A stretch of 56,517 nucleotides of DNA from a virus, in IMG/VR virus record IMGVR_UViG_3300033150_002389; one strand, given 5' to 3'. The first letter of the stretch is position 1. Each line of letters begins with the position of its first letter. Made by a program: the position numbers and the translations under genes. Positions 15,661 to 19,996 of this stretch are shown here, piece after piece. The notes beneath the pieces were generated by a model. That model was given only the letters and a program-made list of their open reading frames with translations, did no database searches and was not told where the DNA came from.

Positions 15661-16800
15661 ATGGCAGATCCCGAAAAACAGGACGCTACCCCCAAGGGCG
15701 CGGACAACGAGGATCTCACAGAAGAAGAAAAGCAGCAGCTGGAGAGTCAAGGCCGAGAGAAGGCCGCAGACGTGCGTCTGAGCGCTCTTGACCAGATTGC
15801 AGCCAATGTCGACCGTCAAAGAGTTGAAGAGGACGGAATGAAACTGGACATTGAAGAGCCTGCCCAGGAGGAACCAGAAGGGAACGAAACGGACCAGGCG
15901 GGGGAGGAGACTTCGGGGGAGCACGCGATCGACGAGGCTGAGGCTGCAAAGAAAGAGAAAGAGCAACAGGAGCTAGAGCGGTACGAAGAAGAGGTTACCC
16001 TTGTTATTGACGGGACCGAACAAAAAGTGCCATTGAGCAAGGTGAAGGAGGCCGGGATAAGGACGCTCCAGAAGGAGTCAGCTGCGGATAAACGCCTCGA
16101 AGAGGCATCACGGCTCAAAAAGCAGGCCGAAGAGTTGCTAGAGGAAGCGACGAAAAAAGCCGCCGAGGCACCCACAAAGACGGATGGGTCACCCGACGGC
16201 AAGACCCCGGAAGAGCGCGATGCCGAGTTCAATGAAAAGAAGCGCGCCTGGATACAGGCTATCCAGTACGGAGACGAAGACGAGGCAGCCGCTGCCATAG
16301 ACGAGATCATCGCGGCCGGACGCGGCACTACCCCCGCTATCACGCCCGAGATGATTCAGGAAGAGGTGCAGAAGGCCCTTGAGCAGCGAGAAGAGCAGGC
16401 TAAAGAGCAGGCTGCCGAAGTGATTCGTCAAAAGTTCTTTCAACCCGCGGAAAGTGGAGGCTTCCAGGACCTCGGGGAGAACCCCTACCTGATGGCGGAG
16501 GTTACCCGGATTGTCAATGAGAAACTGGCCGCCGGCGAACCCAATGTATGGGAAACGTACGCCGCAGCGGGCGCAGAGGTCAGAAAAGCCAGGGAAGAGG
16601 CCGTCAAACCCAAGCCCCCCCCTAAACCTAAAGTCGCGGACATGAAAGAAAAAGAAGAGAAGAAGAAGGGCATTGACGAGCCAAAACCCGTCAGTGCAAA
16701 ACAAGAAACCACTACCCCTTCGGACCAGGAGAAAACGGAAGAGCAGGCCCGCGCGGAGGCCGTGCAAGAAATCATGAAGGTCCGAGGGCAAACCAGATAG
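15661..16800 (+). CDS. scaffolding protein (putative)
   Basis: highly acidic Glu/Lys/Ala-rich helical protein between portal and capsid genes. Confidence 0.5.
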   Translation: MADPEKQDATPKGADNEDLTEEEKQQLESQGREKAADVRLSALDQIAANVDRQRVEEDGMKLDIEEPAQEEPEGNETDQAGEETSGEHAIDEAEAAKKEKEQQELERYEEEVTLVIDGTEQKVPLSKVKEAGIRTLQKESAADKRLEEASRLKKQAEELLEEATKKAAEAPTKTDGSPDGKTPEERDAEFNEKKRAWIQAIQYGDEDEAAAAIDEIIAAGRGTTPAITPEMIQEEVQKALEQREEQAKEQAAEVIRQKFFQPAESGGFQDLGENPYLMAEVTRIVNEKLAAGEPNVWETYAAAGAEVRKAREEAVKPKPPPKPKVADMKEKEEKKKGIDEPKPVSAKQETTTPSDQEKTEEQARAEAVQEIMKVRGQTR

Positions 16801-16815
16801 AAAGGAGTAAGAAGT

Positions 16816-16920
16816 ATGCCTGGACAGTTATGGGCGGTGAATACCTTGGGTGGGTACATGTATTCACTCAACCTGAGTAAAAAGCTCAGGATGGCTGTTC
16901 AGCCTCTGATCAAGTTCCGT
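16816..16920 (+). CDS. major capsid protein, exon 1 (35 codons)
   Basis: AAGGAG 9 nt upstream of ATG; MPGQLWAVNTLGGYMYSLNLSKKLRMAVQPLIKFR then TAA at 16921. Confidence 0.6.
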
Positions 16921-17168
16921 TAAGAATGGCGGAAGTAAAACCCGCTCTGATTGACTTGGAAGCCCGGGCGCGGGCGACAAGGCGCAAGCAACGCCACCCT
17001 AAAGGAGGGCGTGTGGGCAGCGTGAACGACTGAGCGAGCGGGCACTGGAGAGAAAATACCAATATCCAGTGATGCGACAGTCTGAACCCCGGCATAACGC
17101 CTCAAGAGAAACCGGGGAGGCTACCCCAACAGGGCGTCCGCCCATGCGGTCATGAAAGTAACAGATTG
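16921..17168 (+). ncRNA. putative group I self-splicing intron (248 nt, no ORF)
   Basis: preceded by U, ends with G, length 2 mod 3; P1, P3, P7, P8 and P9-like helices found by eye in canonical order (details in findings). Confidence 0.6.
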
Positions 17169-18056
17169 CAGTTTTGCGATGTAAAAGATGCAACGCAACA
17201 GGGGCTGAAAAAAGGCGATACGTTCCACTGGAATGTATACAGTGACGTTTCGACACAGGGCACGAAGCTCACTGAAACGAAAACCATGCCCGAAACACAA
17301 TTCACGATCACCCAGGGAACCTTGACCATTGATGAGTATGGCAATAGCGTTCCCTACTCCGGGAAGCTTGATAATCTTTCCGAGCACCCGGTCACGGAGA
17401 TCATCAACAAGGTCCTGAAGAATGACGCAAAGAAGGCCTTTGACATAGCGGCACATGCCCAGTTCAATGCCTGCGTTCTTCGCGTCGTTCCGACGGCTGG
17501 GACGTCTACCACGGCGGTTACTCTGACCACGAACGGAACCGCGACCCTGACCAACGACGTTGCCCTGAAGAAGCAGCACATTGGGCTGGTAGTCGACACC
17601 ATGAAGGAGCGGAACATCCCGCCCTACATTGAGGACGACTACTACGTACTCGCATGGCCGTCCACGTTCCGGCAGCTCAAAACGGACCTTGAGGGCGTCT
17701 ATCAGTATGTGACGCAGGGCTTCCAGCTCATCATGAACGGTGAGATTGGCCGGTACGACAATTGCCGTTTCGTGGAGCAGACCCAGATTCCGAAGGGCGG
17801 AGCGGCGGATTCCACAACCTGGGACGCCGATACGAAAACGGCCGATGCCTGGAACAAGGCCAAGAGCGACTGGGCGTTCTTCTTTGGGGAGGATACGGTC
17901 GCCGAGGCAATTGCGGTTCCCGAGGAGATGCGCGGGAAAATCCCCACAGACTATGGCCGGTCGAAGGGGGTAGCGTGGTATTACCTCGGGGGCTTCGGGA
18001 TCGTCCACACAGCGGCCGCCCAGTGTCGAATCCTCAAATGGGATTCGGCATCATAG
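17169..18056 (+). CDS. major capsid protein, exon 2 (295 codons)
   Basis: ORF track 17166-18056; position after scaffold; splicing would give ...LIKFR-QFCDVKDAT... Confidence 0.6.
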   Translation, partial: QFCDVKDATQQGLKKGDTFHWNVYSDVSTQGTKLTETKTMPETQFTITQGTLTIDEYGNSVPYSGKLDNLSEHPVTEIINKVLKNDAKKAFDIAAHAQFNACVLRVVPTAGTSTTAVTLTTNGTATLTNDVALKKQHIGLVVDTMKERNIPPYIEDDYYVLAWPSTFRQLKTDLEGVYQYVTQGFQLIMNGEIGRYDNCRFVEQTQIPKGGAADSTTWDADTKTADAWNKAKSDWAFFFGEDTVAEAIAVPEEMRGKIPTDYGRSKGVAWYYLGGFGIVHTAAAQCRILKWDSAS

Positions 18057-18074: not shown

Positions 18075-18467
18075 ATGCCAAGTTTCTACGACGACGCACA
18101 ATACGGCGTGAGGGAGAGGCTTTATCTCACCGCACACCAGGCGGAGAAGACGCTGGCCGGGGATAAAACTCTCGTGAAGAGGTTCTACCCCAAGGGTCCG
18201 ATCAAGATCTTGAAGTTTGGGATCCAGCACATCGCGACCCAGGGCGGTACCGAGGTAACAGTTAACCTCAAAAGGAATTCGTCAACGCTGGCTACAGTTG
18301 TTGCCTCCACGGATTCAGCACCGTGGACCATAGCCAGCAAGTCGCTCGACAAGAACTGCGACGCGGGCTCCTATCTCACCGTGGACAGCGCAGGTACCGT
18401 TGCGACAGGATCTATAATCTGTTTCATCGAGTACAGGCGGCGCTACAGCACTAAGTGGGACGTCTAG
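18075..18467 (+). CDS. 130-aa virion-associated protein, paralog 1 (decoration-protein candidate)
   Basis: GGGGGTGAGG SD; about 85 percent aa identity to the next gene. Confidence 0.55.
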   Translation: MPSFYDDAQYGVRERLYLTAHQAEKTLAGDKTLVKRFYPKGPIKILKFGIQHIATQGGTEVTVNLKRNSSTLATVVASTDSAPWTIASKSLDKNCDAGSYLTVDSAGTVATGSIICFIEYRRRYSTKWDV

Positions 18468-18539: not shown

Positions 18540-18932
18540 ATGCCCTCATTTTATAGTGATGCACAGTATGGCGTTGTTGAGCGCCTTCACTTCCATGCCT
18601 ATCAGGATTCGGTCCTCATAAACGGTGACAACACCCTGGTGAAGAGGTTCTATCCCAAAGGCCCAATCAAGATTTTGAAATTCGGGATCCAGCACCGGGC
18701 AACGCAAGGTGGCACCGAGGTCACGGTCAACTTAAAGCGCAACTCTTCAACGCTCGCAACGGTAGTGGCTTCGACGGACTCGGCGCCCTGGACCATTGCG
18801 AGTAAGTCCATTGACAAGAATGTGGACGCAGGGAGCTATTTGACCATCGACAGCGCCGGTACCGTTGCCAGCGGAAGCATAATTTGCTTCATTGATTACA
18901 GGCGCAGATACAGCTCGAAGTGGGATACCTGA
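18540..18932 (+). CDS. 130-aa virion-associated protein, paralog 2
   Basis: tandem paralog; protein conserved while synonymous sites have diverged. Confidence 0.55.
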   Translation: MPSFYSDAQYGVVERLHFHAYQDSVLINGDNTLVKRFYPKGPIKILKFGIQHRATQGGTEVTVNLKRNSSTLATVVASTDSAPWTIASKSIDKNVDAGSYLTIDSAGTVASGSIICFIDYRRRYSSKWDT

Positions 18933-18955: not shown

Positions 18956-19996
18956 ATGAAAATCGTCGAGATCGCGCGGCACTGTTGCATCAGAGTCCAA
19001 AAGCAAGCAATTCCGCTCATGGATAAGGGTTACGAGGTTCATTGCATCGCAAACAAGCCTCCAATGTTTGGCGACCGATATAAGACGCTTACCATCTACC
19101 AGCACAGGGCGCAGATGGAGGAGGCGATCAAGCTTCACGAGGATGCCGACATCTTCCACGCGCATAACGAGCCCTCGTGGTTCGTTACGATCATCAAGTC
19201 AATTTTCCCTGATAAGCCCGTTGTCCTTGATTGCCACGACAGCTTCCTTCTGAGGGTAGACCCGGATGCGCCTTACGACCCCGACAGACCTAAATGGAGC
19301 AAGGATGAGCGCGACAATATGGAGCTTGCGGATGCACTTGTCTTCGTCTCAGAGCCGATGGCGCAGATTGTCCGGGAGACCTACTGGCTAGAGCAACCTT
19401 ATGTAGTCCTCCCTTCGTATGTTCCAGAGGAGTTTTACAGGGTGGACGCCTGGAAGCTGCTCGGAGGAGTCTGCATGGAAGGAAGGGTTGATCTCCCCCA
19501 GGAAATCGAGCAGGGCAGGGAACACTGGTGCTTTTGGTATTGCGAATATACGGAGACCGCGCGGCAATTCCATGAGCGAGGAATCCCGTTCTATCTCTAC
19601 ACGCCTGGAGGGACGAAGGAGATACAGGAAACATACGGCCAGACAGCAACCTGGAAGGGATCGTATCCATTTGATCGGCTAATTCGTCAGATAGGCCGGC
19701 ATGAATACGGGTTGTGCGGGAATATCAGGCCTCACCCTGCCTGGCAGGCCGCTATGCCCAATAAGCTGTTTGAATACCTCGCCGCTGGCATACCCGTCAT
19801 CGCCCTAAATGCGAAGCACCCGGGCCAGTTCATTGAAGAGCACGGTTTCGGTATGGCGGTAGAAAACATGGGCCAGGTGAAAGAGCGCTGGATGGAGCAC
19901 CGGGATTTTAGGAAGAACATCGCTAGGCGCTCCAGAGACTGGGCTATGGAACGCCATATAGACAAACTCGAAGCGCTTTACAGGGAGCTTGTCTAA
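18956..19996 (+). CDS. GT-B fold glycosyltransferase (GT1/GT4-like)
   Basis: C-terminal PNKLFEYLAAGIPVIALNAKHPGQFIEEHGFG matches the E-x7-E family motif. Confidence 0.6.
   Translation: MKIVEIARHCCIRVQKQAIPLMDKGYEVHCIANKPPMFGDRYKTLTIYQHRAQMEEAIKLHEDADIFHAHNEPSWFVTIIKSIFPDKPVVLDCHDSFLLRVDPDAPYDPDRPKWSKDERDNMELADALVFVSEPMAQIVRETYWLEQPYVVLPSYVPEEFYRVDAWKLLGGVCMEGRVDLPQEIEQGREHWCFWYCEYTETARQFHERGIPFYLYTPGGTKEIQETYGQTATWKGSYPFDRLIRQIGRHEYGLCGNIRPHPAWQAAMPNKLFEYLAAGIPVIALNAKHPGQFIEEHGFGMAVENMGQVKERWMEHRDFRKNIARRSRDWAMERHIDKLEALYRELV

What the first reader, a model, noticed from the sequence alone, without database searches (positions are those of the whole stretch)
16816..18056. Major capsid gene split by a 248-nt ORF-less group I-like intron
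The capsid frame opens at 16816 with a good SD, runs 35 codons and hits TAA at 16921. The rest of the capsid protein resumes at 17169 in a different frame. The 248-nt gap (16921-17168) follows a U, ends in G, and is 2 mod 3 long, so splicing restores the frame to give ...LIKFR-QFCDVKDAT.... By eye it contains P1 (exon UUCCGU 16915-16920 with GCGGAA 16929-16934, U.G at the splice site), P3 (16941-16947 with 17036-17042), P7 (GACUG 17028-17032 with CAGUC 17078-17082, inside an R-element-like AACGACU), a P8 hairpin (17043-17071) and a P9-like hairpin (17087-17117), in canonical group I order.
Basis: partly seen in the sequence, partly recalled or inferred. Interest (0 to 1): 0.8.

Follow-up and report, generated by a model that had tools for sequence, protein, structure and literature searches.

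The report
Self-splicing intron in phage capsid gene
The phage's major capsid gene is split by a 248-base, ORF-less group I intron that must be spliced out of the mRNA; this is a known kind of element, but it belongs to a large, compact intron family, found mostly in capsid genes, that the Rfam group I model does not detect.

Summary
Joining 16816-16920 to 17169-18056 gives a 330-aa major head protein. It aligns without a gap to hundreds of uninterrupted 330-aa homologues across ...KFR|QFCDVKDA.

Rfam finds nothing here, even at E<=10. That is a false negative: in the same test it also misses the T4 td intron and scores T4 nrdB below threshold.

The intron's 3' motif led to more than 60 related introns in viral contigs. 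A MAFFT alignment of 15 of them, without the window, supports P3-P9.2 including the P3/P7 pseudoknot. 96% of cells pair, against 78% when shuffled and 39-49% when slid, and 37 of 48 pairs show compensatory changes.

A covariance model built from that alignment hits window 16929-17168 end to end (128.6 bits, E=7e-43). It also hits Twort-like and T4 nrdB group I introns.

P1 is a perfect 6-bp helix ending in U.G in 62 introns, with 31 different sequences, and P10 is supported.

Relatives carry the same intron at the same capsid site without an ORF, with a LAGLIDADG ORF, or with an HNH ORF.

Verdict: a genuine group I intron and a new member of a known kind. Of 63 delineated family members, 59 sit in major capsid genes.

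The parts
16816..16920 (+). Capsid exon 1: 35 codons, ATG 16816 preceded by AGGAG, ending ...AAG UUC CGU
   Evidence: It aligns to residues 1-35 of uninterrupted 330-aa homologues. The PHROG 1357 match starts at residue 20, inside exon 1.
16921..17168 (+). Group I intron, 248 nt, with no homing-endonuclease ORF (the only ORFs inside are 35 and 28 aa)
   Evidence: Family model R1, built without this sequence, matches 16929-17168 full length at 128.6 bits, E=7e-43. ORF list.
17169..18056 (+). Capsid exon 2: 295 codons plus stop, beginning CAG UUU UGC (QFC...)
   Evidence: Pfam Phage_capsid_3 and PHROG 1357 major head protein.
16915..16920 (+). P1 5' strand (last 6 exon nt, UUCCGU). U16920 forms the U.G wobble at the 5' splice site.
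   Evidence: P1 is 6/6 complementary in 62 family introns with 31 different sequences. L062 shows a compensatory UUUCGU/GCGAAA.
16922..16928 (+). P1 loop / P10 5' strand (AAGAAUG), pairing with exon 2 nt 17169-17175
   Evidence: 5 of the first 6 anchored pairs form in the window. The family mean is 4.2 of 6, against 2.67 +/- 0.14 with permuted exons.
16929..16934 (+). Internal guide sequence GCGGAA (P1 3' strand)
16935..16940 (+). J1/3 GUAAAA. There is no P2.
   Evidence: Family-wide NWWAAA joiner of fixed length
16941..16947 (+). P3 5' strand CCCGCUC
   Evidence: Pairs with 17036-17042. In the family, 6 of 7 P3 pairs show compensatory changes and 100% of cells pair.
16948..16954 (+). J3/4 UGAUUGA (near-invariant)
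16955..16981 (+). P4-P5 hairpin: P4 CUUG 16955-16958 / CAAG 16978-16981; J4/5 GAA; P5 16962-16966 / 16971-16975 with a GGCG loop
   Evidence: RNAalifold found P4 and P5 independently. Covariation; CM alignment.
16982..17023 (+). P6 (16982-16985 / 17020-17023), P6a (16988-16989 / 17017-17018) and a window-specific insertion 16990-17016
   Evidence: All 4 P6 pairs covary (GGC/GCC, CGG/CCG, CGC/GCG types). The CM shows a 23-nt insertion here.
17026..17032 (+). P7 5' strand (R-like element AACGACUG): A17026, bulged C17027, G17028-G17032. G17028-C17082 is the inferred G-binding pair.
   Evidence: Pairs with 17078-17083. Three of 6 P7 pairs covary and the G-C next to the bulge is invariant in 15/15.
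17036..17042 (+). P3 3' strand GAGCGGG, which forms the P3/P7 pseudoknot
17043..17071 (+). P8 hairpin
   Evidence: All 4 modelled P8 pairs covary. Coordinates.
17072..17083 (+). J8/7 AUGCGA followed by the P7 3' strand CAGUCU (S-like element)
   Evidence: This region is shared with Twort-like and T4 nrdB introns.
17087..17117 (+). P9 hairpin (CCCCGG...CCGGGG)
17119..17138 (+). P9.1 hairpin
   Evidence: 7 of 8 family pairs covary. The window has two non-canonical pairs here.
17140..17150 (+). P9.2 short hairpin within the conserved CCGCC...GGU
   Evidence: these pairs are invariant, so they give no covariation evidence. An alternative register, 17138-17149, is possible.
17150..17168 (+). Conserved 3' tail UCAUGAAAGUAACAGAUUG ending in the terminal G17168 (3' splice site)
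   Evidence: GGUCA-N4-AGUAACAGAUUG is shared by more than 120 viral contigs, with the gap length fixed at 3-4 nt in 125 of 132 matches.

Best explanation
The sequence 16921-17168 is a compact, ORF-less group I self-splicing intron in the pre-mRNA of the major capsid gene.

Inferred mechanism (standard group I chemistry):
- The internal guide sequence GCGGAA pairs with the last six exon-1 bases to form P1. This places the U16920.G16929 wobble at the 5' splice site.
- The P3-P8 core, with its P3/P7 pseudoknot, binds an exogenous guanosine at the G17028-C17082 pair of P7. That guanosine attacks after U16920.
- The P1 loop then pairs with the start of exon 2 to form P10, and the terminal G17168 enters the G site.
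- The free 3'-OH of exon 1 attacks after G17168 and ligates CGU to CAG. This restores the 330-aa capsid reading frame.

Shown here: the exon junction, the secondary structure and its covariation, family membership, and homology to proven group I introns.

Inferred only: the catalysis itself and its efficiency in vivo.

The intron has no endonuclease gene, so it is probably a derivative that lost its homing endonuclease, or never had one. Same-site relatives carry LAGLIDADG or HNH genes in the P5 region.
For: 1. Junction. The spliced protein aligns end to end with uninterrupted 330-aa N4-gp56-family capsids across KFR|QFCDVKDA. The intron-less DNA consensus AAGTTCCGT|CAGTTCTGCGAC matches the ligated exons.
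2. Structure. A MAFFT alignment of 15 family members that excludes the window has 96.2% of cells paired. Shuffled controls give 77.8% and slid controls 39-49%. 37 of 48 pairs carry compensatory changes, and 0 of 500 shuffles reach the observed value. RNAalifold independently recovers P3, P4, P5, P6, P8, P9.1 and P9.2.
3. Membership. Model R1, built without the window, matches 16929-17168 over model positions 1-210 at 128.6 bits, E=7e-43.
4. Link to proven introns. R1 also hits two Rfam-recognised Twort-like introns at 43 and 38 bits. It hits the T4 nrdB intron at 18.4 bits (E=5e-5) and a 91-bit Rfam group I intron in L130.
5. P1 is a perfect 6-bp helix ending in U.G in 62 introns with 31 distinct sequences. 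About 10% would be expected by chance. P10 forms 4.2 of 6 pairs against 2.67 for permuted exons.
6. Same-site relatives have an intact exon 1 and carry LAGLIDADG ORFs (L004, L062, L125) or an HNH ORF (L329) inside the intron. L130 is ORF-less.
7. Group I introns that splice efficiently in phage capsid genes have precedent: LittleE and Tuc2009 (PMC3706429).
Against: - Rfam RF00028 gives no hit on the window at gathering threshold, nor at E<=10 on 16700-17400. It also gives no hit on 16 other family loci.
- No transcript or biochemical evidence is available for this sequence.
- P9.1 has two non-canonical pairs in the window.
- RNAalifold prefers to pair the P7 3' strand with the 3' terminal CAGAUUG rather than form P7. 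A competing inactive fold is therefore conceivable.
- The element lacks P2, and it lacks the P7.1/P7.2 helices typical of the IA phage introns it most resembles. Its subgroup is therefore unassigned.
Confidence: 0.93

Rival explanations
1. The insertion is not spliced. The capsid gene is disrupted: either it is a pseudogene in a defective phage, or a truncated capsid is translated from TTG 17166 without the first 35 residues.
For: Gene callers annotate only the 296-aa product (P0001 and similar entries). There is no direct RNA evidence. Rfam is silent.
Against: - Exon 1 is an intact ORF with a Shine-Dalgarno sequence and ends exactly at the junction.
- The same arrangement is kept in divergent relatives (L130, L004, L062, L125) whose exon 1 sequences differ but stay open.
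- P1 co-varies with synonymous exon changes, which would have no purpose without splicing.
- The N-terminal 35 residues are conserved in hundreds of homologues.
- All catalytic-core features are intact.
Confidence: 0.04
2. Ribosomes bypass the 248-nt gap by translational hopping, as in T4 gene 60, or resume by programmed frameshifting.
For: A stop codon (UAA) immediately follows the last exon-1 codon, as at the gene 60 take-off site.
Against: - The take-off codon CGU (16918-16920) has no matching landing codon. The codon before CAG 17169 is UUG.
- From general knowledge, 248 nt is about five times the gene 60 gap.
- The gap sequence is a covariation-supported group I fold found in many unrelated positions.
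- Same-site variants of 700-750 nt with endonuclease ORFs could not be bypassed.
Confidence: 0.01
3. The element is another class of intervening sequence: a group II intron, an archaeal bulge-helix-bulge intron, an intein, or a DNA transposon/MITE.
For: Some family members occur on contigs binned to archaeal MAGs. Rfam gives no group I hit.
Against: - The element begins UAAGA and ends UUG, not GUGYG...AY, and is far shorter than group II introns. Rfam gives no group II domain hit.
- A stop codon at the first intron codon excludes an intein.
- The P1/IGS, P3/P7 pseudoknot and terminal G architecture, together with cross-hits to T4 and Twort introns, specifically identify group I.
- A bulge-helix-bulge motif and terminal inverted repeats were not searched for explicitly.
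Confidence: 0.02

Closest known systems
Phage group IA2 introns: Staphylococcus phage Twort orf142 introns and T4 nrdB (and td)
   Same: - The S-like element GAUAUAGUCUGAAC.
- A P9 hairpin with a GAAA-type loop.
- A P5 resembling ACCCUAACGUAAAGACGAGGG.
- A 3' end of the type CAUAA.AG.AAC.G.UUG.
- The family model R1 detects them at 43, 38 and 18 bits.
- They sit in phage protein-coding genes, with optional homing-endonuclease ORFs.
   Different: - No P2: a 6-nt J1/3 joiner takes its place.
- No room for P7.1/P7.2. P7 and P3' are 3 nt apart, and P3' abuts P8.
- It has an extra P9.2 and an invariant GGUCA-N4-AGUAACAGAUUG tail.
- It is much more compact, at 198-250 nt without an ORF.
- The T4 td intron is not detected by R1.
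Capsid-gene group I introns of mycobacteriophage LittleE and lactococcal phage Tuc2009 (PMC3706429)
   Same: An intron inside a highly expressed major capsid gene. The 5' exon ends in U and the intron ends in G. Splicing restores a protein colinear with intron-less relatives.
   Different: The LittleE intron is 819 bp and carries an endonuclease gene. It lies in an unrelated HK97-like capsid of an actinophage. No sequence comparison with it was made here.
Rfam RF00028 Intron_gpI
   Same: The same overall P3-P9 architecture. A canonical RF00028 intron (91 bits) lies about 140 nt upstream in the same capsid gene of relative L130.
   Different: RF00028 gives no match to this intron or to 16 other family loci.
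Small (~206 nt) group I introns that fragment essential genes of uncultivated phages, e.g. Jug jumbo phages (PMC12880540)
   Same: Compact, mostly ORF-less introns found by metagenomics in essential phage genes. In that study splicing was confirmed by metatranscriptomes.
   Different: Those introns were reported in terL, nrdD and DNA polymerase genes of 360-400 kb phages and were found with subtype covariance models. Whether they are the same family was not tested.

Membership tests
Group I intron (biological class) | The 5' splice site follows a U that forms a U.G wobble in P1 with an internal guide sequence | tested here: met
   U16920.G16929 within UUCCGU/GCGGAA. The same rule holds with 6/6 pairing in 62 family introns having 31 different P1 sequences.
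Group I intron (biological class) | The intron ends in a conserved terminal G | tested here: met
   G17168. ...CAGAUUG is invariant in the family.
Group I intron (biological class) | Core helices P3, P4, P5, P6, P7 and P8 in canonical order, with a P3/P7 pseudoknot | tested here: met
   96.2% of cells paired and 37 of 48 pairs with compensatory changes, and the controls fail. The window is aligned to all helices.
Group I intron (biological class) | A guanosine-binding G-C pair in P7 next to a bulged nucleotide | tested here: met
   G17028-C17082 with bulged C17027 and A17026-U17083. The G-C pair is invariant in 15/15 (columns 115/174). The function of this pair is inferred by analogy with Tetrahymena G264-C311 (own knowledge).
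Group I intron (biological class) | P10 pairing between the guide region and the 3' exon | tested here: met
   The window forms 5 of 6 pairs. The family mean is 4.21, against 2.67 +/- 0.14 for permuted exons (maximum of 1000 permutations 3.08).
Group I intron (biological class) | Detectable homology to experimentally proven self-splicing group I introns | tested here: met
   R1 hits Twort-like introns (43 and 38 bits) and T4 nrdB (18.4 bits, E=5e-5) at the positions Rfam also marks.
Group I intron (biological class) | Guanosine-dependent self-splicing by two transesterifications | not testable with these tools
   Needs in vitro transcription and splicing, or RT-PCR.
Rfam RF00028 Intron_gpI (curated model) | Score at or above the gathering threshold (50 bits) | tested here: not met
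   No hit at gathering or at E<=10. As a control, the same model gives no hit at E<=1 for T4 td and 35.7 bits for T4 nrdB. This criterion therefore measures model coverage, not class membership (see also PMC6125680).
Subgroup IA2 (phage-type group I) | Extra P7.1/P7.2 helices in the core (Michel-Westhof criterion, own knowledge) | tested here: not met
   Only 3 nt lie between the P7 5' strand (ends 17032) and P3' (starts 17036), and none between P3' (ends 17042) and P8 (starts 17043).
Subgroup IA2 (phage-type group I) | Sequence similarity of the P7-P9 region and the 3' end to IA2 phage introns | tested here: met
   blastn matches the Intron_gpI annotated in Staphylococcus phage 110. CM alignments.
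Translational bypass (T4 gene 60 type) | Matched take-off and landing codons flanking the gap | tested here: not met
   Take-off codon CGU against UUG before the resume codon.
Mobile (homing) intron | An intron-encoded homing endonuclease | tested here: not met
   The window's intron has no ORF longer than 35 aa. Same-site relatives do encode LAGLIDADG (L004 26.4 bits, L062, L125) or HNH (L329) proteins.

The most novel reading that the evidence does not exclude
The intron may belong to a large and apparently undescribed lineage of compact group I introns related to IA2 but lacking P2 and P7.1/P7.2. These introns share an invariant GGUCA-N4-AGUAACAGAUUG 3' tail. The lineage appears to have specialised in phage major-capsid genes. 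Of 63 delineated members, 59 are in capsid genes, spread over at least 31 different insertion sites, with up to four introns per gene. Members carry interchangeable LAGLIDADG or HNH endonuclease genes, or none. Such a pattern would imply frequent retargeting by change of the guide sequence, for example through reverse splicing. It could also reflect a selective role in late-gene expression or in competition between co-infecting phages.
Probability: 0.35. Interest if true: 0.55.

Novelty: new member of a known kind. Interest (0 to 1): 0.4.

Why it matters
- **Annotation of this genome.** The correct capsid gene is a join of 16816..16920 and 17169..18056, giving 330 aa. The 296-aa fragment that gene callers record is incomplete.
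- **Limits of the Rfam model.** The case shows concretely that RF00028 misses a whole abundant family of phage group I introns. At least three GenBank phage genomes carry unannotated members that split RNR or capsid genes.
- **Split capsid genes in metagenomes.** Several contigs break inside the intron, so split capsid calls in metagenomes may often be intron artefacts. These distort protein clustering and phylogenies based on major capsid proteins.
- **A possible research subject.** The concentration of this family in capsid genes, if it is not a sampling effect, offers a good system for studying how ORF-less introns spread to new sites.

Tried and rejected
- **Rfam searches.** I scanned the whole window at gathering threshold, 16700-17400 at E<=10 and 16 family loci. 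There were no group I hits. I treated this as a sensitivity limit after the T4 control.
- **14-mer scan.** Searching viral contigs for AGTAACAGATTGCA gave mostly chance matches. Only L062 was real.
- **Exon-anchored metagenome scan.** This found only 6 loci. It was useful, but limited to the same site.
- **Capsid-protein scan of viral contigs.** All 80 best loci were uninterrupted. They served only as intron-less references.
- **blastn of the intron against GenBank phages.** There were few hits and none was annotated as an intron, apart from the Twort-like P7-P9 similarity.
- **Genome-contig scan.** The 84 hits are no more than chance expectation. After filtering with R1, about 25 loci were real. 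The MAG taxonomy is too heterogeneous to infer a host.
- **First 5'-boundary regex.** It was mis-specified and was redone.
- **RNAalifold's alternative pairing.** It paired the P7 3' strand with the 3' terminus. I rejected this as the main fold because P7 shows compensatory changes and the alternative does not.
- **Other classes considered and rejected.** Bypassing, group II intron, intein and pseudogene; see the rival explanations.
- **Neighbouring ORFs.** PHROG searches of 15661-16800, 18075-18467 and 18956-19996 gave nothing.
- **Literature.** I did not find a description of this specific family. The search was limited.

Full report
**1. The observation.**
An ORF with a good Shine-Dalgarno sequence opens at 16816 and stops at TAA 16921-16923 after 35 codons.
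- A 296-aa ORF occupies 17166-18056 in a different frame.
- The intervening 248 nt (16921-17168) follow U16920 and end in G17168.
- Joining 16920 to 17169 gives a 330-aa protein. It hits Pfam Phage_capsid_3 and PHROG 1357 'major head protein', with the match starting at residue 20, inside exon 1.

**2. Is the junction real?**
- A search of 5.8 billion proteins found 6554 relatives. Most of the best hits are uninterrupted proteins of about 330 aa (the sources call them the N4-gp56 family major capsid protein). They cover 100% of the spliced query.
- In the alignment the junction reads ...QPLIKFR|QFCDVKDAT... with no gap or extra residue.
- In 80 intron-less homologues from viral contigs, the consensus DNA at the site is AAGTTCCGT|CAGTTCTGCGAC. 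The window's ligated exons read AAGTTCCGT|CAGTTTTGCGAT.
- Several database proteins of 279-296 aa begin exactly at QFCDV. Their contigs carry the same interruption or break inside it.

**3. Rfam is negative, and why that does not refute the claim.**
- RF00028 gives no hit on the window at gathering threshold, and none on 16700-17400 at E<=10.
- In the same kind of search it gives no hit at E<=1 for the T4 td intron. It scores the T4 nrdB intron 35.7 bits, below its 50-bit threshold.
- It scores Twort-like introns at 106 and 69 bits.
- Nawrocki et al. state that no single alignment such as RF00028 captures group I diversity (PMC6125680).

**4. Relatives at the same capsid site.**
- L130 has a 206-nt ORF-less copy.
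- L004/L128, L062/L126 and L125/L127 have copies of about 705-735 nt. These contain 174-190-aa ORFs that hit LAGLIDADG_1. L004 scores above Pfam's cut-off; the other two are just below it.
- L329 has a copy containing an HNH ORF.
- Exon 1 is intact in all complete copies although it has diverged.
- P1 co-varies with the exon. The window and L130 have UUCCGU/GCGGAA, and L062 has UUUCGU/GCGAAA.

**5. A large family.**
- All these copies end in (G)GUCA-N-AAGUAACAGAUUG.
- The gap is 3-4 nt in 125 of 132 matches, whereas chance would spread it evenly over 1-7.
- Upstream sequences share the elements ...GAACGACUAAG...GAUGCGAUAGUCUGAAC-hairpin-GAGG...CCCGCC....
- A script found 67 distinct introns with a fixed 5' architecture: a 6-nt guide, NWWAAA, a 7-nt P3 strand, then UGAUUGA.
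- In 62 of them, a 6-mer ending in U and perfectly complementary to the guide lies just upstream. About 10% would be expected by chance. There are 31 distinct P1 sequences.
- P10, anchored at the first exon-2 base, forms 4.21 of 6 pairs. Permuted exons give 2.67 +/- 0.14.

**6. Secondary structure.**
- I aligned 15 ORF-less members with MAFFT, leaving out the window and L130 (A3).
- I scored the structure P3, P4, P5, P6, P6a, P7 (as a pseudoknot), P8, P9, P9.1 and P9.2.
- 96.2% of cells form standard pairs, against 77.8% in shuffles (0 of 500 reach the observed value). With the 3' partners slid by 1-3 columns the figure is 39-49%.
- 37 of 48 pairs show changes on both sides.
- RNAalifold on a second alignment recovered P3, P4, P5, P6, P8, P9.1 and P9.2 unaided.
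- RNAalifold paired the P7 3' strand with the 3' terminus instead of forming P7. However, P7 has three covarying pairs (C-G/G-C, U-A/C-G, and A-U/U-A/G-C) and the alternative pairing has none.

**7. Membership of the window's element.**
- Covariance model R1 was built from A3. P7 was left unpaired because the tool cannot model pseudoknots.
- R1 matches window 16929-17168 over all 210 model positions at 128.6 bits, E=7e-43. This is the only copy in the window.
- Relative to the consensus, the window has a 23-nt insertion in P6, a longer P8 and P9, and two non-canonical pairs in P9.1.

**8. Link to proven group I introns.**
- R1 also hits the two Rfam-recognised introns of Staphylococcus phage 110, a Twort relative, at 43 and 38 bits.
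- It hits the T4 nrdB intron at 18.4 bits (E=5e-5).
- It hits the 91-bit RF00028 intron that lies upstream in the same capsid gene of L130.
- The shared parts are P5, the S-like element, P9 and the 3' tail.
- Unlike the IA2 introns it resembles, the family has no P2 and no space for P7.1/P7.2. I therefore leave the subgroup open.

**9. Where the family lives.**
- I translated the ligated exons of the 63 delineated introns.
- 59 interrupt major head protein genes: 54 of one PHROG-1357 type, 2 of the window's type, and 3 of other types.
- 2 interrupt a P22-like portal gene and 1 another virion protein.
- Several contigs carry 2-4 family introns in a single gene.
- GenBank records hold unannotated members. 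Examples are Roseobacter phage CRP-118 (RNR split into gp44/gp45), MW202674 (two 'P22 coat protein' CDS) and Desulfovibrio phage 7757.
- The capsid enrichment rests on the first 120 rows of a truncated scan. It needs an unbiased census.

**10. Comparison with the literature and verdict.**
- Group I introns in phage capsid genes are documented, and splicing has been shown for LittleE; Tuc2009 is another case (PMC3706429).
- Small group I introns of about 206 nt are known to fragment essential genes of uncultivated phages (PMC12880540).
- The element is therefore a genuine group I intron and a new member of a known kind.
- The residual novelty lies in the family: Rfam does not detect it, its core is compact, and it is concentrated in capsid genes.

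Noticed in passing
window 18075-18467 and 18540-18932: Two tandem paralogous genes directly downstream of the capsid gene. Each is 130 aa and they are 84% identical. Neither has a PHROG match. Relatives (L001, L328, L329) appear to have a single copy in this position.
   Followed up: partly
L130 1853-2144: A second, canonical group I intron (RF00028, 91 bits) lies within the first few codons of the same capsid gene in relative L130. An HNH-like ORF sits upstream of its core. This capsid gene therefore carries two introns of different families about 140 nt apart.
   Followed up: partly
L004 2564-3373: The capsid gene of relative L004 has a second interruption near its C-terminus, after ...GVAW. 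It contains a 269-aa HNH_3 endonuclease ORF, and R1 gives a partial hit at 2760-2806.
   Followed up: partly
L345 829-2469; L394 1363-2629; L397 1804-2879; L275, L301, L305, L247, L238: Several contigs carry two to four copies of this intron family within 1-2 kb, apparently in a single capsid gene. Some of these contigs are binned to archaeal or CPR (candidate phyla radiation) MAGs, so they are probably mis-binned phage DNA.
   Followed up: partly
L331 2501-2709 (OR420741 Roseobacter phage CRP-118); L332 2493-2698 (MW202674); L334 2419-2646 (PV062637 / OR395405): Published phage genomes contain unannotated members of the family (91-145 bits). They split a ribonucleotide reductase gene (gp44/gp45) and a 'P22 coat protein' gene into two annotated CDS.
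   Followed up: partly
window 17078-17084 versus 17162-17168: The P7 3' strand (C/U)AGUCUG is complementary to the invariant 3' terminal CAGAUUG, and RNAalifold prefers this pairing. It could be a competing or pre-catalytic conformer. There is no covariation to test it.
   Followed up: partly
L001, L002, L003, L129 (contig ends): Four independent metagenome contigs end inside this intron, 27-138 nt upstream of exon 2. This suggests the assemblies break at the intron because populations are polymorphic for its presence or for its ORF content.
   Followed up: no
L335 (T4 134000-146000): Rfam RF00028 gives no hit at E<=1 for the T4 td intron and only 35.7 bits for T4 nrdB. This is a useful caution for any Rfam-based screen for phage introns.
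   Followed up: yes
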